Of a DNA stretch of 64,000 bases, positions 19,693 through 55,042 are shown one piece after another. The notes under the pieces are model-generated. The model saw only the letters and a program-made list of their open reading frames with translations, had not been told where the DNA came from and ran no database searches. The translations under genes and the position numbers were made by a program. Position 1 is the first letter of the stretch. Each line of letters opens with the position of its first letter. The DNA is from Escherichia phage SP27, in the sequence record LC494302.1; one strand, written 5' to 3'.

Positions 19693-19721
19693 TTGACATA
19701 GAAAAAGTAATTATGTATAAT
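19693..19721 (+). promoter_or_regulatory. sigma70-like promoter (TTGACA-17-TATAAT)
   Basis: Perfect -35 and -10 hexamers with a 17-nt spacer immediately after the upstream stop codon. Confidence 0.5.
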
Positions 19722-19722
19722 C

Positions 19723-19753
19723 AGAGAACTTCATATGGAGTTCTCTTTTTTTA
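19723..19753 (+). terminator. hairpin plus T7 tract immediately downstream of the promoter -10
   Basis: agagaact-tcatatgg-agttctct followed by TTTTTTT; either the terminator of the upstream gene or a leader attenuator. Confidence 0.5.
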
Positions 19754-19765
19754 TAAGGTGATAAA

Positions 19766-49291: not shown

Positions 49292-49319
49292 TTGACAAGA
49301 TAGAATGATGTGATACAAT
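49292..49319 (+). promoter_or_regulatory. sigma70-like promoter P1 (TTGACA-16-TACAAT)
   Basis: A-rich upstream tract, TTGACA at 49292 and TACAAT at 49314. Confidence 0.45.
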
Positions 49320-49386
49320 AAGCATCAGACATAAAGTTTTCAAGCGACACAAGATGTGAGTTTGAAAAAAAAAAGAAAAAAAGTGA

Positions 49387-49414
49387 TTGACAAGTTGAAA
49401 CGATGTGATATAAT
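49387..49414 (+). promoter_or_regulatory. sigma70-like promoter P2 (TTGACA-16-TATAAT with A-tract UP element)
   Basis: Consensus -35 and -10 hexamers inside repeat copy 1. Confidence 0.5.
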
Positions 49415-49480
49415 GTTCACATCAAGACAGCAAAGAGATTTACCTTTTAAACACACGGAAAAAAAAAAGAAAAAAAGTGA

Positions 49481-49508
49481 TTGACAAGTTGAAACGATGT
49501 GATATAAT
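49481..49508 (+). promoter_or_regulatory. sigma70-like promoter P3 (TTGACA-16-TATAAT with A-tract UP element)
   Basis: Identical to P2, inside repeat copy 2. Confidence 0.5.
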
Positions 49509-49572
49509 GTTCACATCAAGACAGCAAAGAGATTTACCTTTTAAACACACGGATGATTCATGAAGTAACAAA

Positions 49573-49636
49573 GGAACTGATAAGTTAAATTATTTTAACA
49601 CAGTTCCTTTACTTTTGCCCACGGATTGGCTATAAT
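49573..49636 (+). promoter_or_regulatory. leader hairpin with T-rich tail, then a weaker promoter (TTTACT-17-TATAAT)
   Basis: ggaactg ... cagttcc stem followed by TTTACTTTT; TATAAT at 49631, about 40 nt upstream of the AAA+ gene start. Confidence 0.3.
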
Positions 49637-49677
49637 AGAAACTTAAACGATTTTATCCAACAAAAGGAAATATATAC

Positions 49678-51003
49678 ATGACTACTCAAAACGATATCCT
49701 GAACGTTAAACTGACTCCAAAGAAAGCTAAAGAAGCAATGGCACTAGCTGACATGATTCAAGATAGCCTGATGATTTGGGGTAGCCCAGGTATCGGTAAG
49801 TCTGCAATCGCTCGTCAATACGCTGATGAAAATTACCCACTGCGTAAAGATAACGTAGCTAAAATCGAGTTCATGAAACAACAAATCGAAGCTGACCCTG
49901 AAAATGCTGATCAGCTACGCCGTGAACTGGCTGCATTTGAAGCAAAACTAATCGACCAAGATACTAACTTTATCGATTTCCGTTTGTCTCAAATCGAACC
50001 AAGTGACCTTCGCGGTATTCCAGTACCAGAGAAGCTTTTCCGTAAAACTGACGGTTCTCTTCTGAAAGAATCTGAGCTTGCCGAAGCAAAAGATTATGTA
50101 GCTGAAACTGCGGTAGTATGGGCTGCACCTAAAGTTCTGAAATTGTCCGAAGATTGGAAAGGTGTTATTCTGTTTGACGAAATTAACTCTGCAATGCCTA
50201 TTGTTCAGGCAGCGTCTTATCAGCTAATCCTCGACCGTTGTGTTGGTGAGATGAAGCTACCTAAGACTGCACTGATTCTTGCAGCAGGTAACCGTGAAAC
50301 TGATGGCGGTGTAACTTTCTCTCTTGCTACACCACTGCGTGACCGTATGACTCACATTGAGATGATTCCTTATCATCAAGATTGGATTAACGATTATGCG
50401 ATTGCAAAACGTTTGAACCCAGCAACTGTTGCGTTCATCAACAACACTGGTTCTAAGTACTTTAACACACTTAGTCCACAAGATCCTTCTCACAGTGGTG
50501 GTACTTCTCCACGTTCATGGGAAGCAGTAGCACGCTACGAAGATCTCAAGAAAACTAAGACAATTGATAAAGAAGTGTTCCGTGCAATGATTGCTGGTCG
50601 TGTTGGTGAAGGTGTTGCAACTGAATACATTGAGTACGTTGAGAACGTTGCTAAACTACCAGATACTATGTCTATTCTGTCTGGTGAAATCAAAGAAATC
50701 GACGCAACGCTGGATATTTCTGCGAACTACTTTATCACTCTGAACTTGGTTTATAAAATTATCGACCTGTTCAATGAGAAGCAAGAACAACGTCTACCAG
50801 TGGAAGAATGGGGTAAACTGTGTAACAACTTCATCACCTTCCTAGACCATAACTTCTCTGCAACTCAAGCAGAACTGGCAGTACTGGCAATTCGTACCAT
50901 CACGCTTCATAAGGTTGCGATTTCCATTAAAGATGTACCAGCGTTTAAAGATTTCATCGCTAAGTACTCTGAACTTGTACGTAAAGCACGCTCTCTTGGC
51001 TAA
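49678..51003 (+). CDS. MoxR-type AAA+ ATPase (AAA_5-like; CbbQ/NorQ/CobS-related)
   Basis: Walker A GSPGIGKSAIA, Walker B VILFDEINSA, MoxR-like sensor region AAGNRETDGG...LRDRM; codon usage (CTG, CGT, ATC) is distinctly higher-GC than surrounding genes. Confidence 0.75.
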   Translation: MTTQNDILNVKLTPKKAKEAMALADMIQDSLMIWGSPGIGKSAIARQYADENYPLRKDNVAKIEFMKQQIEADPENADQLRRELAAFEAKLIDQDTNFIDFRLSQIEPSDLRGIPVPEKLFRKTDGSLLKESELAEAKDYVAETAVVWAAPKVLKLSEDWKGVILFDEINSAMPIVQAASYQLILDRCVGEMKLPKTALILAAGNRETDGGVTFSLATPLRDRMTHIEMIPYHQDWINDYAIAKRLNPATVAFINNTGSKYFNTLSPQDPSHSGGTSPRSWEAVARYEDLKKTKTIDKEVFRAMIAGRVGEGVATEYIEYVENVAKLPDTMSILSGEIKEIDATLDISANYFITLNLVYKIIDLFNEKQEQRLPVEEWGKLCNNFITFLDHNFSATQAELAVLAIRTITLHKVAISIKDVPAFKDFIAKYSELVRKARSLG

Positions 51004-51024
51004 TTAACAAAGAGTTGTTGACAA

Positions 51025-51057
51025 GAAGGATGCCTAATGGTATCCTTCTTTTATCTT
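51025..51057 (+). terminator. rho-independent terminator
   Basis: gaaggatgcc-taat-ggtatccttc hairpin followed by TTTTATCTT. Confidence 0.5.
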
Positions 51058-51077
51058 AACTAAACGAGGAAATATAC

Positions 51078-52502
51078 ATGTCAGATAACAAATCTACTTC
51101 CAGATTCAATGAAGTATCTCCGGCACTCCAGAAAGAATGTCAAGATCGTCTGGTTCTGGCTCGTACATCTTTGATGTTAACTGCACCATTCTTTGGTGTA
51201 CTCGCTTCACGTTTACGTCCAGTTCCTAATAATACATGGTGTCGTACTCTAGCAGTTGATGGTAAACATCTATTCTACAACGTAGAATTTGTAATGGGTA
51301 TTCAAGACCCATCTAAAAAGAAAGAATATGAAGAAGCTATTCGTGAAAAGCATCCTGAAGTTACAGACGAACAATTAAAAGAAATGACTGAAGGTTTGAC
51401 TGATGAAAACCTTATTGCTGTAATTTGTCATGAAATTCTACACTGTGCTTACGATCACTTCCTTCGTCGTGGTATGCGTGATCCACAACGTTATAACCGT
51501 GCAGCGGATTATGCCATTAACCAAATCATCGTTCGTGAGAAAATTGGAAAAATCCAAAGTTCATGGTTGTATGATAAAAAATATGAAGGTATGACCGCAG
51601 AAGAGATTTACATTCTTCTTGAAGAAGAAGAACAAAAAGAAGATGGTGAAGGTGAAGGTCAACCACAAAGTGGCGGCGGTGAAGGTGAAGGTAAAAATCG
51701 CGGTACTTTTGGTGATATTAAAGATGGTAAGGGTAAACCAAAAGGTACTACCATTGACCAGCATGACGTTCCACAAGAAGGTCAAGAAGGTGGTTCAAGT
51801 GAACAGCAAAAACGTGATTATATGGATGATTTCAAAACAGCAATGATGAATGCTGCACGTGCAGGTGGTACACCAGCAGAAATCGCTCGTATGATTAACA
51901 ACTTTAAAGAACCAAAGATTGACTGGCGTTCAAAACTTCAACGTACACTTCGTAGTTGGTTGAAGTCTGATGCAACGTATCAAAGTCCTTCTCGTCGTTC
52001 ATGGGGTGCTGGTTTTGGTTCTAATGGTTCATTCTATGGTAATCCAATTTACCCAGGGATGAAACCAGATGATGATATTGATATTGCGATTGCACTAGAT
52101 GCTTCTGGGTCTATTTCTGAAGATATGCTTCGTGATTTCATTAGTGAAGTTCTTGGCATCACTAAACAATTCAAACAGTTTAAGATTCGTATCATGACTT
52201 TTGATACTGAAGTTTATACTGTAAAGGATTACAAAACTGGCGAAGAACGTAAGATTCTGGAATATCCAGTAAAAGGTGGTGGTGGTACTGACTTTGAAGC
52301 AGTATGGGTTCATATGAAGAACGACAACTACAAGCCTAAACAGCTTGTAATGTTTACTGATGGTGAACCGTGGCAGTCATGGGGTGATCCAAACTACTGT
52401 AAAACACTGTTCGTGATTCACAGTAACCCAAATAAAGTTGCACCATTTGGTGAGACTGTACACTACGAATATGAAGCTGATAAAAAGCGTCAACGTAGTT
52501 AA
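51078..52502 (+). CDS. vWA-domain protein with N-terminal HExxH putative metallopeptidase domain (MoxR partner)
   Basis: HEILH (VICHEILHCAYDH) in the N-terminal half; Gly/Glu low-complexity linker; C-terminal vWA MIDAS motif DASGS (IALDASGSISEDM) followed by alternating hydrophobic strands. Confidence 0.7.
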   Translation: MSDNKSTSRFNEVSPALQKECQDRLVLARTSLMLTAPFFGVLASRLRPVPNNTWCRTLAVDGKHLFYNVEFVMGIQDPSKKKEYEEAIREKHPEVTDEQLKEMTEGLTDENLIAVICHEILHCAYDHFLRRGMRDPQRYNRAADYAINQIIVREKIGKIQSSWLYDKKYEGMTAEEIYILLEEEEQKEDGEGEGQPQSGGGEGEGKNRGTFGDIKDGKGKPKGTTIDQHDVPQEGQEGGSSEQQKRDYMDDFKTAMMNAARAGGTPAEIARMINNFKEPKIDWRSKLQRTLRSWLKSDATYQSPSRRSWGAGFGSNGSFYGNPIYPGMKPDDDIDIAIALDASGSISEDMLRDFISEVLGITKQFKQFKIRIMTFDTEVYTVKDYKTGEERKILEYPVKGGGGTDFEAVWVHMKNDNYKPKQLVMFTDGEPWQSWGDPNYCKTLFVIHSNPNKVAPFGETVHYEYEADKKRQRS

Positions 52503-52513
52503 GTACTAAATAA

Positions 52514-52543
52514 AGAGAACGGAATTTTCCGTTCTCTTCTTTT
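52514..52543 (+). terminator. rho-independent terminator
   Basis: agagaacgg-aatttt-ccgttctct hairpin followed by TCTTTT. Confidence 0.55.
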
Positions 52544-52596
52544 ATAAGTGGGACAACTTATAAAAATATGATATAATAGTTAATGTACCAATATAC

Positions 52597-52857
52597 ATGG
52601 AGAGTATTAAAATGGAACAAGAAAATAATCAAATTCAACTAACCCTTCTAGACCTAATCAATGCTGCAAAAATCATGGAAGCTGCTGTTGCACGAAACAC
52701 CTTTAAAGTTGAAGAACTTGTTGAGGTTGCTCCAGTTGTATCTAAATTTGTTTCTTTTGCAAATGTAGCTCTTGAAGATATTAAAGCACAAGAAGATGCA
52801 GCTAAAGAAGAAGCTGAATCACAAGATAGTGAAACTCAAGAAGATAAAGGAGAATAA
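52597..52857 (+). CDS. hypothetical acidic protein (86 aa)
   Basis: ORF with GGAG RBS. Confidence 0.4.
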   Translation: MESIKMEQENNQIQLTLLDLINAAKIMEAAVARNTFKVEELVEVAPVVSKFVSFANVALEDIKAQEDAAKEEAESQDSETQEDKGE

Positions 52858-52859
52858 TT

Positions 52860-53516
52860 ATGGCAGCTATTCGTCATGTTGGTGTAATGCGTAATACAGG
52901 TTCTCGTGTTTTTGTTGTTTGGCGTTCACTACCAGATGATCCTGAACACTGCCTTATCGTTTATCGTGATTCACTACCAGAAGCATATGTTCACGCAGTA
53001 ACTGATATTGTTATGGGTCATGGTCAATCTAATATTGATTTGTGGGAAGTAATGCATAAAATTGGTTATCTCGATGGACGCAAAATGCTAGATGTTCTAC
53101 ACAACATGCAGCATCTACGTCGCGTTCGTACTTGTGACATTGATATGCACACTGGTGGTAATAATAAAATTTCTCTTGATGTTCTAAACAAAGCATTAGA
53201 TGAAAATCAAGCGAAAGTACAAGAAGATGGTAAAGTAAAAGACTTTAACCCATTCAATCCACAAGAAGCGGACACTAAAGTAGAAGAAGCTACTATTGTA
53301 GAACAACTTCTCACTGATGCACAAAAATATGAAAAACTGGCTAAAGAACATTATGAACGTGCATACAATTTAGAGCCAAGCTTGCGTCCGCAAACACAAG
53401 TTGTTGAACAACCGAAAGATAGTAAAACAATTTATCTAGAAATTCCAGAAGGTATTTCACAGACTAAAGCTATTGAGAAAGTAAAACAACTATTTGCAGA
53501 ACGTAAAGCAAAATAA
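52860..53516 (+). CDS. hypothetical protein (218 aa)
   Basis: ORF coupled to the upstream gene; no motif recognised. Confidence 0.45.
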   Translation: MAAIRHVGVMRNTGSRVFVVWRSLPDDPEHCLIVYRDSLPEAYVHAVTDIVMGHGQSNIDLWEVMHKIGYLDGRKMLDVLHNMQHLRRVRTCDIDMHTGGNNKISLDVLNKALDENQAKVQEDGKVKDFNPFNPQEADTKVEEATIVEQLLTDAQKYEKLAKEHYERAYNLEPSLRPQTQVVEQPKDSKTIYLEIPEGISQTKAIEKVKQLFAERKAK

Positions 53517-53519
53517 AAT

Positions 53520-54113
53520 ATGAAAAAGAATGAATTAGATGAAGCAATTAAAGGTTTATCTAATGTATGTTTTAGTGGCGGGGCAGCAGGTGCTGACCGC
53601 CTTTTTTCTATCTATGCAAAAAATAATGGATTTGAAGTTATTAATTTTTCATTCAAAGGTCATGAGCATAGTGTAGATGAAAGTACTATATTAGAAATAC
53701 CATCCAATATTCTATCTGATATTTCTATATTAAATCAACTAAACATTGCATGTTACTCGTTGCAGCGAAAAGTACCAAAACCTGGTTCTTATGTTTACAA
53801 CTTACTTGCAAGGAATAGTTATCAGATACTTAATACAGAAAGAATATATTGTATTGCAAATATCACATCACCAACTAAGGTAAGTGGTGGTACTGCATGG
53901 GCAGTACAGATGTATATGGATTCAGTTGAAAATCCTGAAATTTATTGTTATGATATGAATTCACGTTCAGTATTTTATTTCGATACAGTACTGAAAGAGT
54001 TCACACAAACATTCGTCGTTCCAGCACCACATGGTAACTGGACTGGTATTGGTTCACGCAATGCCACCGAAAAACATATGGAACATTTTATTACATTTTT
54101 CAAGGAAGAATAA
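53520..54113 (+). CDS. hypothetical Rossmann-like protein with GGAAGAD motif (SLOG/DprA/YpsA-like; speculative)
   Basis: VCFSGGAAGADRLF near the N-terminus resembles the GGxxGxD loop of SLOG-superfamily folds; lies where T4 carries frd but has no DHFR motifs. Confidence 0.45.
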   Translation: MKKNELDEAIKGLSNVCFSGGAAGADRLFSIYAKNNGFEVINFSFKGHEHSVDESTILEIPSNILSDISILNQLNIACYSLQRKVPKPGSYVYNLLARNSYQILNTERIYCIANITSPTKVSGGTAWAVQMYMDSVENPEIYCYDMNSRSVFYFDTVLKEFTQTFVVPAPHGNWTGIGSRNATEKHMEHFITFFKEE

Positions 54114-55042
54114 TGAAACAACTACAAGAACTATATCAAAAAATTCTAGATGAAGGCGTAGAAAGCGTTGACCGTACTGGTGTTGGAACAATCAAACTTA
54201 TCGGTCAACAAATGCGTTTTGACCTTAAAGATGGTTTCCCAGCAGTGACGACAAAACGTCTAGCTTGGAAAGCAATGACTTCAGAATTACTATGGTTTAT
54301 TGAAGGTTCCCATGATGAGCGTCGCCTTTGTGAAATTTTGCATGGAACTCGTGATACAGAAAAGAAAACTATTTGGACAGATAATTACCTAAATCAAGGC
54401 GTTGCTCTTGGTTATACTGATGGTGAGTTAGGTCCAGTGTATGGTAAGCAATGGCGTGAATGGGAAGATTATAAATTTAGTTCCAGTACTGAAGAAATTC
54501 AAGAATTAAAAGATAAAGGATACAAAGTTATCGATTATACTGGTTCACATGGTGTTGTTATGAAACGTACAACTGACCAATTACAAGAACTAATCAAAGG
54601 TATAAAGTCCGATCCATATGGCCGTCGCCACATTCTAAGTGCATGGAACGTTGGTGAGCTTGATGATATGACGTTACCACCTTGTCATAGCTTTGTGCAA
54701 TTTTGTGTAGTGCAAGGAAAACTAAGCTGTATTCTGCATCAACGCTCCGCTGATCTATTTTTAGGAGTTCCATTTAATATCAGTAGTTACTCACTACTAA
54801 CTCATATGATTGCACAAATTACTGGTTTAGATGTTGGTGAATTTATTTGGAATGGTGGTGATTGTCACATTTATAAAAACCACGTTGAACAAGTAAAAGA
54901 GCAACTACAGCGAAAACCTCGTGAATTACCTGAATTGTGGCTTGATCCTACAATTACTAATATTGAAGATTTCACTATGGATTCTTTTAAATTAGTGAAT
55001 TACAACCCAATGCCAACAATTAAAGCACCTATGGCTGTATAA
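54113..55042 (+). CDS. thyA: thymidylate synthase (ThyA)
   Basis: Catalytic LPPCH, QRSADLFLGVPFNISSYSLLTHMIAQ, GDCHIYKNH and C-terminal ...PMAV all match ThyA; no intron interruption. Confidence 0.9.
   Translation: MKQLQELYQKILDEGVESVDRTGVGTIKLIGQQMRFDLKDGFPAVTTKRLAWKAMTSELLWFIEGSHDERRLCEILHGTRDTEKKTIWTDNYLNQGVALGYTDGELGPVYGKQWREWEDYKFSSSTEEIQELKDKGYKVIDYTGSHGVVMKRTTDQLQELIKGIKSDPYGRRHILSAWNVGELDDMTLPPCHSFVQFCVVQGKLSCILHQRSADLFLGVPFNISSYSLLTHMIAQITGLDVGEFIWNGGDCHIYKNHVEQVKEQLQRKPRELPELWLDPTITNIEDFTMDSFKLVNYNPMPTIKAPMAV

What the first reader, a model, noticed from the sequence alone, without database searches (positions are those of the whole stretch)
49678..52502. MoxR-type AAA+ ATPase plus vWA/HExxH protein pair with high-expression codon usage
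Two adjacent genes encode an AAA_5/MoxR-like ATPase (GSPGIGKS, FDEINSA) and a partner with an N-terminal HExxH motif (HEILH) and a C-terminal vWA MIDAS motif (DASGS). MoxR-vWA pairs act as remodelling or metal-insertion modules in cells (CbbQ/CbbO, NorQ/NorD, CobS/CobT) and have been proposed as components of NTP-dependent conflict systems. Here the pair is phage-borne, sits behind three near-consensus promoters, and uses a codon style closer to the sheath gene than to neighbouring accessory genes, which suggests abundant expression. Candidate roles are virion or replication-complex maturation, or a counter-defence protease switch; none is established.
Basis: partly seen in the sequence, partly recalled or inferred. 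Interest (0 to 1): 0.65.

Follow-up and report, generated by a model that had tools for sequence, protein, structure and literature searches.

The report
Phage MoxR ATPase with vWA-peptidase partner
Two adjacent, highly expressed genes of a 121Q-like jumbo coliphage encode a MoxR-type ATPase and a partner that joins a zinc-peptidase domain to a metal-dependent protein-binding (vWA) domain; this pair was already described from sequence in phage N4 (gp24/gp25) and in jumbo phages, and its role in infection has never been tested.

Summary
ORF A (49678-51003, 441 aa) is a divergent MoxR-class AAA+ ATPase. ORF B (51078-52502, 474 aa) has an N-terminal HExxH zincin domain (DUF2201_N, E 2.7e-34) and a C-terminal vWA-like domain (DUF2201, E 7e-21). 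All catalytic and MIDAS residues are invariant in homologues. The window is a 121Q-like jumbo phage and the genes correspond to gp563/gp564. The codon claim holds more strongly than stated: the two genes rank 2nd and 3rd of 81 ORFs by E. coli CAI, above the sheath gene. The three sigma70 promoters exist, but two arise from a 94-bp duplication missing from the public relatives compared. A conserved, covarying terminator-like hairpin also lies between the promoters and the start codon.

The pair is not new. It is the N4 gp24/gp25 module, two of 14 N4-like core genes. It occurs in hundreds of phage records and was described for jumbo phages by Iyer et al. 2021, who proposed virion assembly. It is neither CobS/CobT nor an HNH endonuclease, which is a propagated misannotation. 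Promoter type, N4 middle-gene timing and neighbouring genes point to a pre-late remodelling and processing machine. However, the ATPase alone appears in three virion proteomes. Function is untested. Interest is modest.

The parts
49292..49319 (+). Promoter P1: TTGACA, 16-nt spacer, TGaTACAAT (extended -10), preceded by an A-rich tract
   Evidence: 11 of 12 matches, TG present; also present in the deposited 121Q record.
49364..49553 (+). Perfect tandem duplication of a 94-bp unit. Each unit carries an A-tract and a consensus promoter TTGACA-16-TGaTATAAT (P2 at 49387-49414, P3 at 49481-49508).
   Evidence: Tandem Repeats Finder: 2.0 copies, 100% match. Promoter scan 12/12. Only one copy is present in NC_025447 and in IMG/VR locus L041.
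49570..49617 (+). Leader hairpin AAAGGAACTG...CAGTTCCTTT followed by ACTTTTG. It is terminator-like and lies inside the transcript made from P1-P3.
   Evidence: Conserved in all 18 IMG/VR relatives plus K64-1, GAP32 and Yen9-04. 91.4% of cells are paired, against 18-53% in slid controls. 4 of 10 pairs show compensatory changes; 0 of 500 shuffles reach the covariation score. RNAalifold predicts the same helix independently.
49617..49630 (+). Short second stem GCCCA-CGGA-TTGGC with a conserved NGGA loop, directly after the T-run
   Evidence: Fixed-register check: 12 of 14 sequences have at least 4 contiguous pairs, and the arms covary. The motif occurs only once in the window. It is short, so this is a lead and not a proven element.
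49608..49636 (+). Weaker promoter-like site TTTACT-17-TATAAT downstream of the leader hairpin
   Evidence: 10/12 matches. Not conserved as a consensus in relatives.
49678..51003 (+). ORF A, 441 aa: MoxR-class AAA+ ATPase (121Q gp563, phAPEC6 gp265c, N4 gp24-like). Walker A at nt 49780-49803; Walker B D167/E168 at nt 50176-50181. Also sensor 1 N205, Arg finger R223 and sensor 2 'SPR' P278/R279. A clade-specific helical hairpin insert spans aa 56-90.
51023..51059 (+). Intercistronic hairpin (12-bp stem, 4-nt loop) followed by UUUUAUCUU; a likely partial terminator that lowers partner expression relative to the ATPase
   Evidence: RNA fold dG -21.8 kcal/mol, z = -5.0. An equivalent hairpin with a T-run sits between the two genes in K64-1, GAP32 and Yen9-04.
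51078..52502 (+). ORF B, 474 aa: zincin-like metallopeptidase domain (DUF2201_N, about aa 10-300; HExxH at nt 51429-51443), variable acidic/Gly-rich linkers, and a vWA domain (DUF2201, aa 335-462; MIDAS DxSxS at nt 52098-52112, plus T404 and D428). It corresponds to 121Q gp564, phAPEC6 gp264c and N4 gp25-like proteins.
52513..52538 (+). Terminator-like hairpin with a T-run that closes the two-gene unit
   Evidence: 11-bp stem, 5 GC pairs.

Best explanation
The two genes form the phage 'N4 gp24/gp25-type' module, a two-component ATP-driven machine for remodelling and processing proteins.

Shown here: A has every catalytic element of a MoxR-class AAA+ ATPase. B has an intact HExxH zincin site and a complete MIDAS site in a vWA fold. 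The two genes are linked in the order ATPase then partner wherever there was room to check.

Inferred from CbbQ/CbbO, NorQ/NorD and midasin: A forms a hexameric ring and one copy of B docks on it. The MIDAS-bound metal ion of B captures a carboxylate side chain of a specific protein substrate. ATP hydrolysis pulls on or remodels that substrate, and the fused peptidase domain cuts it.

Expression, inferred from sequence: the pair is its own transcription unit. It is driven by host sigma70-type promoters (extended -10) and gated by a conserved leader hairpin. An intercistronic hairpin should give more ATPase than partner, matching a 6:1 complex. Host-optimised codons should make both proteins abundant.

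Biological role (the least certain step): a conserved function that starts before the late phase and is co-expressed with replication and nucleotide-metabolism genes. It would mature or process a phage or host protein complex and is not a tail-specific or head-specific assembly factor. The substrate is unknown.
For: Domains and residues. Folds.

Linkage: an ATPase homologue lies upstream on the same strand in every genome contigs locus with room upstream (26 of 30 loci; the other 4 are truncated). The genes are adjacent in N4, K64-1, GAP32, Yen9-04, Aeromonas 4L372XY and S-TIM66.

Mechanistic precedent: CbbQ6:CbbO1 stoichiometry, MIDAS binding of Asp82 of the substrate, and substrate-stimulated ATPase activity (PMC4660213).

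Stoichiometry: the hairpin between the genes is conserved. The ATPase but never the partner is detected by MS in phAPEC6, PA5oct and DC4.

Abundance: CAI ranks 2 and 3 of 81.

Pre-late timing: sigma70/extended -10 promoters are conserved upstream in all relatives examined, whereas structural genes in the window carry an AT-rich T4-late-like motif instead (by eye). N4 gp24/gp25 are middle transcripts and belong to the 14-gene N4-like core (PMC4193335).

Neighbours: ThyA/ThyX, dCTP deaminase, dUTPase, thymidylate kinase, MazG, rIIA, DNA ligase and beta-clamp.

The pair occurs in podoviruses and several unrelated myovirus groups, which argues against a role tied to one virion architecture.
Against: There is no experiment on any phage orthologue.

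In the whole Rak2-like clade the pair sits directly after a block of virion structural genes. In S-TIM66 it lies beside Hsp20 and structural genes.

The ATPase was found in three virion preparations, which could mean real virion association.

Timing in 121Q-like phages is inferred from promoter sequence only. The leader hairpin could block most transcription from the strong promoters. The late-promoter motif was identified by eye.

The zincin fold was not confirmed by structural comparison, because the vWA domain dominated all hits. MoxR ATPases are not known to feed substrates to peptidases, so the coupling of remodelling to cleavage is inference.
Confidence: 0.5

Rival explanations
1. Virion-assembly chaperone with a processing protease (the proposal of Iyer et al. 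2021). The MoxR-vWA pair would help assemble head or tail structures and cleave structural proteins during maturation, by analogy with the p618/p892 pair needed for tail development in Acidianus two-tailed virus.
For: Published proposal (PMC7824862). Conserved position right after structural genes in the Rak2-like genera. An Hsp20 gene and virion genes flank the pair in cyanophage S-TIM66. The ATPase was detected in purified virions of phAPEC6 (6 peptides, 19% coverage), PA5oct and Staphylococcus phage DC4. High codon adaptation is typical of abundant morphogenesis proteins.
Against: The pair is core in N4-like podoviruses and also present in rV5-like, PVP-SE1-like, PA5oct-like and phage G-like phages, whose virions differ. 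In N4 it is a middle gene among transcription, replication and nucleotide-metabolism genes. Here it has sigma70-type promoters and not the late-type motif. The same virion MS lists contain ThyA, SSB, RecA-like, RNase H, GroEL and UvsX, so abundant non-structural proteins carry over, and the DC4 authors say so themselves. The peptidase-bearing partner was never detected in virions. These phages already encode a T4 gp21-type prohead protease.
Confidence: 0.27
2. Host-takeover or counter-defence protease switch. The vWA domain would recognise a host protein such as a defence or regulatory factor, and the module would inactivate it by ATP-dependent remodelling and cleavage early in infection.
For: Early-type promoters. 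The genes lie beside rIIA in N4 and rV5-like phages. vWA-MoxR pairs are components of predicted conflict systems (PMC7159879). Relatives occur in prophage or mobile-element contexts in bacterial genomes.
Against: The pair is a conserved core gene set across phages of many hosts, from Escherichia to Roseobacter, Bacillus, Staphylococcus and cyanobacteria, and its active sites are invariant. This is unlike typical fast-evolving, patchy anti-defence genes. It has no PADLOC match. No third conflict-system component was recognised next to it.
Confidence: 0.13
3. Auxiliary metabolic chelatase pair (CobS/CobT-like or BchI/BchD-like) that inserts a metal into a cofactor or enzyme.
Against: There is no CobS, CobT or chelatase family hit above threshold in Pfam or NCBIfam. 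The partner's N-terminal domain is an HExxH zincin and not a CobT or BchD N-domain. No cobalamin or porphyrin genes lie nearby.
Confidence: 0.03
4. ORF B is an HNH endonuclease, as RefSeq and PHROG phrog_1314 label it.
For: Only the database labels themselves.
Against: No HNH family appears among the Pfam matches at E <= 0.1. The whole protein is accounted for by DUF2201_N plus DUF2201. The conserved His residues form an HExxH(x4)H zincin-type motif. The C-terminal fold is vWA.
Confidence: 0.01

Closest known systems
Coliphage N4 gp24 / gp25 (N4-like core genes 24 'unknown' and 25 'vWFA domain')
   Same: The pair is homologous: gp24 shows 29% identity with E 2e-21, and gp25 shows 25.7% identity over 455 aa with E 6e-26. 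Gene order and adjacency are the same. phAPEC6 and K64-1 already annotate their genes as N4 gp24/gp25-like.
   Different: The jumbo-phage ATPase is about 90 aa longer. It has a helical hairpin insert after Walker A (aa 56-90) and an enlarged beta-hairpin insert. The partner has longer acidic/Gly-rich linkers. In N4 the genes are transcribed by the phage RNAPII as middle genes, whereas here host-type sigma70 promoters lie upstream.
MoxR AAA+ / zincin-vWA pair of 'group 2.2' jumbo phages (Iyer et al. 2021, Viruses 13:63)
   Same: The architecture is the same: a MoxR ATPase plus a vWA protein fused to an N-terminal metallopeptidase, in jumbo phages mostly infecting gammaproteobacteria.
   Different: That paper proposes a virion-assembly role without experiments and does not note the N4-like or rV5-like distribution. 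The evidence gathered here (promoters, N4 timing, neighbouring genes) leans towards a pre-late role. The paper's example proteins are ASV44729.1 and ASV44728.2; I did not check which phage they come from, and the paper does not name 121Q in that passage.
CbbQ/CbbO and NorQ/NorD (cellular MoxR-vWA remodelling pairs)
   Different: CbbO and NorD have long, non-enzymatic N-terminal regions. Here the N-terminal region is a zincin peptidase domain, so cleavage is probably added to remodelling. No Rubisco or NO reductase genes lie nearby. This ATPase falls below the Pfam AAA_5 and AAA_3 thresholds.
Acidianus two-tailed virus p618 (MoxR-like) / p892 (vWA)
   Same: It is a virus-encoded MoxR-vWA pair, cited as the precedent for a viral role.
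   Different: According to Iyer et al. it lacks the peptidase domain. It comes from an archaeal virus with extracellular tail growth. Homology to the present pair was not tested here.
Cellular and mobile-element DUF2201 proteins (COG3864-type 'predicted metal-dependent peptidase') with an adjacent MoxR-like ATPase, e.g. Synechocystis sll7028/sll7029
   Same: The Pfam architecture and linkage are the same. The family has 14,674 representative clusters at E <= 1e-3.
   Different: The function of these proteins is also unknown. The one isolate-genome locus I annotated (Brucella pecoris) looks like the replication module of a prophage or mobile element, with a DNA ligase and a beta-clamp, and not a cellular operon.

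Membership tests
MoxR-class AAA+ ATPases (Pfam AAA_3/AAA_5 neighbourhood) | Walker A GxxGxGK[ST] and Walker B hhhhDE | tested here: met
   G35, G38, K41, S42 and E168 are invariant and D167 is at least 90% conserved across 36 homologues.
MoxR-class AAA+ ATPases (Pfam AAA_3/AAA_5 neighbourhood) | Sensor 1 Asn, Arg finger in a 'DR' motif, sensor 2 'SPR' motif and a 'PxDLxG' helix-2-insert motif, laid out as in MoxR proteins (the MoxR layout is recalled from memory) | tested here: met
   N205, R223, P278/R279 and D110/R112/G113 are invariant or nearly so. The AF2 model shows a beta-hairpin insert at 114-123/140-149. The functional roles of these residues are inferred by position.
MoxR-class AAA+ ATPases (Pfam AAA_3/AAA_5 neighbourhood) | Score above the Pfam gathering threshold for AAA_5 or AAA_3 | tested here: not met
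   This protein scores AAA_5 15.6 (cutoff 22) and AAA_3 16.7 (cutoff 27); only generic AAA passes, at 21.3 vs 21.2. Among aligned homologues AAA_5 matches 13/36, AAA_3 12/36 and bpMoxR 4/36 at E <= 0.001. It is therefore a divergent branch linked to the family through intermediates.
MoxR-class AAA+ ATPases (Pfam AAA_3/AAA_5 neighbourhood) | Fold closest to solved MoxR-family members | tested here: met
MoxR-class AAA+ ATPases (Pfam AAA_3/AAA_5 neighbourhood) | Genomic pairing with a vWA/MIDAS protein | tested here: met
   An ATPase homologue lies upstream on the same strand in every genome contigs locus with room upstream (26 of 30). The genes are adjacent or nearby in all the phage groups examined.
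MoxR-class AAA+ ATPases (Pfam AAA_3/AAA_5 neighbourhood) | Hexamer formation and ATPase activity stimulated by the partner | not testable with these tools
   This needs purified proteins.
DUF2201_N + DUF2201 proteins (putative zincin peptidase fused to a VWA-like domain) | Both Pfam domains above the gathering threshold, in that order | tested here: met
   PF13203 scores 119.5 bits (cutoff 23.2) and PF09967 scores 75.1 bits (cutoff 26.4). Nearly all of the 120 listed homologues carry both domains.
DUF2201_N + DUF2201 proteins (putative zincin peptidase fused to a VWA-like domain) | Intact HExxH zinc site | tested here: met
   H118, E119 and H122 are invariant and H127 is at least 90% conserved. 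D144, D227 and H229 are further invariant candidate ligands. Catalysis itself was not tested. The zincin fold was not confirmed by fold search, because vWA hits masked it.
DUF2201_N + DUF2201 proteins (putative zincin peptidase fused to a VWA-like domain) | vWA fold with a complete MIDAS site (DxSxS...T...D) | tested here: met
CobS/CobT cobaltochelatase or BchI/BchD Mg-chelatase | Match to CobS/CobT or chelatase family models | tested here: not met
   No CobS or CobT family appears in Pfam at E <= 0.1. Mg_chelatase matches only at 16.4 bits (cutoff 20.3), over the P-loop region. NCBIfam gives nothing.
HNH endonuclease (current RefSeq/PHROG label of ORF B) | HNH/His-Me finger domain | tested here: not met
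   No HNH family is among the Pfam matches. The protein is fully explained by the zincin and vWA domains.
vWA-MoxR ternary conflict systems (VMAP or beta-propeller type, Kaur et al. 2020) | A third conserved component (VMAP or beta-propeller) and effector domains next to the pair | tested here: inconclusive
   The flanking genes gp562, gp565 and gp566 have no Pfam match and fall in PHROGs of unknown function. PADLOC has no hit for A or B. VMAP was not searched for specifically.

The most novel reading that the evidence does not exclude
The N4 gp24/gp25-type module could be a general, essential, pre-late ATP-dependent site-specific protease of large virulent phages. It would act on a replication-associated, nucleotide-metabolism or host factor and not on virion parts. 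In the Rak2/121Q-like clade, its expression could be gated by a previously undescribed leader: a strong promoter followed by a conserved, covarying terminator hairpin and a small stem with a GGA loop. That leader could work by antitermination or attenuation, or through a CsrA-like RNA-binding protein, or it could yield a small RNA of roughly 60-150 nt.
Probability: 0.2. Interest if true: 0.6.

Novelty: already known. Interest (0 to 1): 0.33.

Why it matters
The pair is one of the few gene sets shared by very different large virulent phages: N4-like podoviruses, rV5-like and Rak2-like myoviruses, PA5oct, phage G and Staphylococcus jumbo phages. It belongs to the 14-gene core of N4-like phages, it appears to be highly expressed, and yet it has no tested function. 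Finding its substrate would fill a real gap in the biology of these phages, several of which are candidates for therapy. It would also show whether a MoxR-vWA machine can be coupled to proteolysis. For this scan, though, the finding is a correct recognition of a module already described in the literature and not a discovery. One practical point is that the 'HNH endonuclease' label on ORF B in RefSeq and PHROGs is wrong and keeps spreading.

Tried and rejected
- PDB sequence searches with single sequences and with profiles. The vWA-peptidase protein found nothing, and the ATPase found only P-loop-level hits.
- NCBIfam and PADLOC: no hits.
- Rfam on the leader and the operon: only chance-level hits.
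- PA5oct RNA-seq: the main text gives no gene-level temporal class, and the supplements are not held.
- The CBB proteome paper has no mention of the pair.
- The CRISPRi-ART paper, the transposon-mutagenesis preprint and the 2026 jumbo-phage review contain nothing on this pair.
- My first promoter pattern used the wrong spacer length and missed the real sites. I redid it in Python.
- Recent horizontal transfer as the cause of the elevated GC and CAI: rejected, because the pair and its synteny are conserved across genera at 54-80% protein identity.
- The CobS/CobT and HNH readings were rejected on domain content.
- The tRNA scan of the window found none.
Full report
**What is there**

The window is a jumbo coliphage of the 121Q/phAPEC6 type (genus Asteriusvirus). 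The region 49400-52600 is 100% identical to 121Q and phAPEC6. Over 27 kb the window is 99.6-99.8% identical to 121Q, so it is a closely related but distinct isolate.

ORF A (49678-51003, 441 aa) corresponds to 121Q gp563. ORF B (51078-52502, 474 aa) corresponds to gp564.

ORF B matches Pfam DUF2201_N, a putative metallopeptidase domain, at E 2.7e-34. It also matches DUF2201, a VWA-like domain, at E 7e-21.

ORF A is only borderline in Pfam: generic AAA scores 21.3 bits against a cutoff of 21.2, and AAA_5 scores 15.6 against 22. It does match the phage family phrog_1297 'ATPase' at 3e-107. NCBIfam and PADLOC return nothing for either protein.

**Are the active sites real?**

I aligned ORF B with 34 homologues reaching down to 42% identity.
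- H118, E119 and H122 (the HExxH motif) are invariant, and H127 is nearly so.
- All five MIDAS positions are invariant: D341, S343, S345, T404 and D428.

I aligned ORF A with 35 homologues reaching down to 33% identity. These elements are conserved:
- Walker A: G35, G38, K41, S42.
- A 'PSDLRG' motif: D110, R112, G113.
- Walker B: D167, E168.
- Sensor 1: N205.
- A 'DR' arginine: R223.
- An 'SPR' motif: P278, R279.

From memory, this layout is that of MoxR proteins. The homologues support the link: AAA_5 matches 13 of 36, AAA_3 matches 12 of 36, and bpMoxR matches 4 of 36.

There is no CobS/CobT signal and no HNH signal. The 'HNH endonuclease' label in RefSeq and phrog_1314 is a misannotation.

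**Is it new?** No.
- phAPEC6 annotates the genes as 'MoxR ATPase' and 'N4 gp25-like protein'. K64-1 calls them 'gp24-like' and 'gp25-like'.
- tblastn finds the partner in 617 of 50,697 phage records and the ATPase in 815. The groups include Rak2-like jumbo phages, PA5oct-like phages, rV5/PVP-SE1-like Vequintavirinae, N4-like Schitoviridae, Bacillus phage G, cyanophage S-TIM66 and others.
- N4 genes 24 and 25 are two of the 14 core genes of N4-like phages, and they are middle transcripts (PMC4193335).
- Iyer et al. 2021 explicitly described a MoxR ATPase plus a vWA protein fused to an N-terminal metallopeptidase in group 2.2 jumbo phages. They proposed a role in virion assembly and processing, without experiments (PMC7824862).
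- An exhaustive search finds 14,674 representative clusters related to B at E <= 1e-3.
- I found no experimental work on any phage orthologue.

**Linkage and neighbouring genes**

In a scan of prokaryotic genomes, every locus with room upstream (26 of the 30 loci; the other 4 are truncated) has an ATPase homologue upstream of the partner on the same strand. The one isolate locus I annotated, in Brucella pecoris, is flanked by an ATP-dependent DNA ligase, a beta-clamp and unknown ORFs. That looks like the replication module of a prophage or mobile element.

| Phage | Neighbours of the pair |
|---|---|
| N4 | After the RNAPII genes, before dCTP deaminase, upstream of rIIA |
| rV5-like | Next to rIIA |
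| PVP-SE1 | Thymidylate kinase, MazG |
| RG-2014 | dUTPase, ThyA |
| S-TIM66 | Hsp20, a virion protein gene, ThyX |
| Rak2-like genera | After a structural-gene block; followed by a DprA-like gene and ThyA |

**Expression signals**

The three near-consensus promoters exist. Within the window they are the only sigma70-type sites that combine at least 11 of 12 matches with an extended -10.

Two of the three come from a perfect 94-bp tandem duplication. The deposited 121Q record has only one copy. The match lengths and the IMG/VR copy of 121Q indicate the same for the other close relatives.

In every relative examined, an A-tract and an extended -10 promoter (TGnTATAAT) lie about 145 nt upstream of the ATG, or further upstream in 121Q and the K64-1-like phage.

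Structural genes in the window are instead preceded by an AT-rich 'AATAAATA'-type motif. I judged this by eye.

Between the promoter and the start codon lies a terminator-like hairpin.
- It is conserved in all 18 IMG/VR relatives and in three further genera.
- 91.4% of cells are paired, against 18-53% in the slid controls.
- 4 of 10 pairs show compensatory changes, and 0 of 500 shuffles reach the covariation score.
- RNAalifold predicts the same helix independently.

A short stem with an NGGA loop follows the hairpin. The motif occurs only once in the window, and Rfam has no match. Strong promoters therefore do not guarantee strong transcription of the genes. The leader may act as an attenuator or antitermination site, or it may yield a small RNA.

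A second strong hairpin with a U-run lies between the two genes (dG -21.8 kcal/mol, z = -5.0). It is conserved in position in K64-1, GAP32 and Yen9-04. It should make the ATPase more abundant than the partner.

**Codon usage**

Among 81 ORFs of at least 70 aa, the E. coli CAI values are 0.464 for A (rank 2) and 0.412 for B (rank 3). The sheath gene scores 0.320 (rank 16) and the median is about 0.25.

A has the highest use of C-ending pyrimidine codons among long genes, 0.54 against a typical 0.2-0.35.

The pair and its synteny are old in this lineage, so this reflects selection for translation and not recent transfer.

**Proteomics**

The phAPEC6 virion MS list contains the ATPase (gp265c, 6 peptides, 19% coverage) but not the partner (PMC7247149).

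The PA5oct GenBank record flags its ATPase, but not the partner, as detected by ESI-MS/MS.

Staphylococcus jumbo phage DC4 has an adjacent AAA ATPase and metallopeptidase, and only the ATPase was found in virions. I infer that this pair is homologous from a weak tblastn hit in the related phage MarsHill. The DC4 authors warn that chaperones can carry over during purification (PMC10638138).

All three lists also contain clearly non-structural proteins, such as ThyA, SSB, a RecA-like protein, RNase H, GroEL and UvsX.

Seeing the ATPase alone fits an ATPase:partner ratio of about 6:1, as measured for CbbQ6:CbbO1 (PMC4660213). It also fits the hairpin between the genes.

**Most likely mechanism**

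The biochemical reading has high confidence:
- A forms a MoxR-type hexamer.
- One copy of B docks on it.
- The MIDAS metal ion of B binds a carboxylate side chain of a specific protein substrate.
- ATP hydrolysis remodels the substrate.
- The fused zincin domain cleaves it.

Each of these steps is inferred from homology. What is shown directly is that the residues are intact, the folds match, and the genes are linked.

The biological role is unresolved. I favour a pre-late function that is not tied to one virion type, at about 0.5. The reasons are the N4 middle timing, the sigma70-type promoters, the replication and nucleotide-metabolism neighbours, and the distribution across unrelated virion types.

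The virion-assembly proposal remains a serious rival, at about 0.27. It is supported by the conserved position after structural genes and by the three proteome detections. A counter-defence role is less likely, at about 0.13, because the pair is a conserved core gene set. The chelatase and HNH readings are rejected.

**Verdict**

The module is already known from comparative genomics and from existing annotations, so novelty is low.

The new points from this check are:
- a quantified codon-adaptation signal;
- the isolate-specific promoter duplication;
- the conserved leader and intercistronic hairpins;
- the recurring detection of the ATPase alone in virion proteomes.

The conserved leader is the least expected item and would be cheap to test.

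Noticed in passing
window 49364-49553: A perfect 94-bp tandem duplication carries a consensus sigma70 promoter. It gives this isolate three tandem promoters, whereas the deposited 121Q record has two. Match lengths suggest the other public relatives also lack the extra copy. It may be a natural promoter amplification, or a repeat collapsed in other assemblies.
   Followed up: partly
window 49570-49630; loci L041-L058 about 70-120 nt upstream of position 2501; L038, L039, L040: The ATPase gene has a conserved leader: an extended -10 promoter, a short leader with 'TTAAGA..ATGGA', a covarying terminator-like hairpin with a T-run, and then a small stem with an NGGA loop. The promoter-before-terminator order is conserved across Rak2-like genera. 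Rfam has no match. It could be an attenuator, an antitermination site, a small RNA, or a CsrA-type binding site.
   Followed up: partly
window 51023-51059; L038 3405-3497; L039 4818-4859; L040 3434-3482: A strong hairpin with a U-run lies between the ATPase and partner genes (dG -21.8 kcal/mol, z -5.0). An equivalent hairpin is present in three other genera. It probably sets an excess of ATPase over partner.
   Followed up: partly
window 19693-19765 and 30701-30775: At two other sigma70 promoters a terminator hairpin starts directly after the -10 box, so the transcription start would fall inside its 5' arm. This compact design would stop upstream transcripts but not those made by the promoter itself.
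   Followed up: no
window upstream of 6853, 16364, 38107, 41166, 41947, 57041(-) and 63495(-): An AT-rich 'AATAAATA/CTAAATA' motif recurs upstream of structural genes. It resembles the T4 late promoter TATAAATA and may be the late promoter of this phage. I saw it by eye only.
   Followed up: no
window 51078-52502 and public records (NC_025447 gp564, phrog_1314, many N4-like and rV5-like phages): The vWA-peptidase protein is widely labelled 'HNH endonuclease', and the 121Q record notes it as 'T4-gp25-like'. It has no HNH domain. The 'gp25' refers to phage N4 gp25.
   Followed up: yes
window 52550-53516: The two downstream genes (86 aa and 218 aa, both in PHROGs of unknown function) also have high CAI (0.349 and 0.355, ranks 8 and 6). 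They have their own extended -10 promoter after the terminator and are syntenic in GAP32 and Yen9-04. The 218-aa protein had one peptide in the phAPEC6 virion MS list.
   Followed up: partly
N4 L004, RG-2014, PVP-SE1 L061, S-TIM66 L060, Yen9-04 L040, window 54113-55042: The pair lies repeatedly near pyrimidine deoxynucleotide enzymes in unrelated phages: ThyA/ThyX, dCTP deaminase, dUTPase, thymidylate kinase and MazG. This may reflect only shared timing, or it may reflect a functional link.
   Followed up: partly
L037 (PA5oct 234078-239264) and L036 (PA5oct 216595-221821): In PA5oct-like phages the ATPase and partner genes are separated by three small ORFs and a homing endonuclease gene. The DNA polymerase gene of the same phage is also split by a homing endonuclease.
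   Followed up: no
window 33945-34193: An 82-aa ORF has the highest E. coli CAI in the window (0.479). I did not examine it further.
   Followed up: no
window 53520-54113: The gene annotated 'DprA-like' gives only a weak SLOG-family (YAcAr) Pfam match at E 5e-4, below the cutoff. The DprA label may be loose.
   Followed up: no
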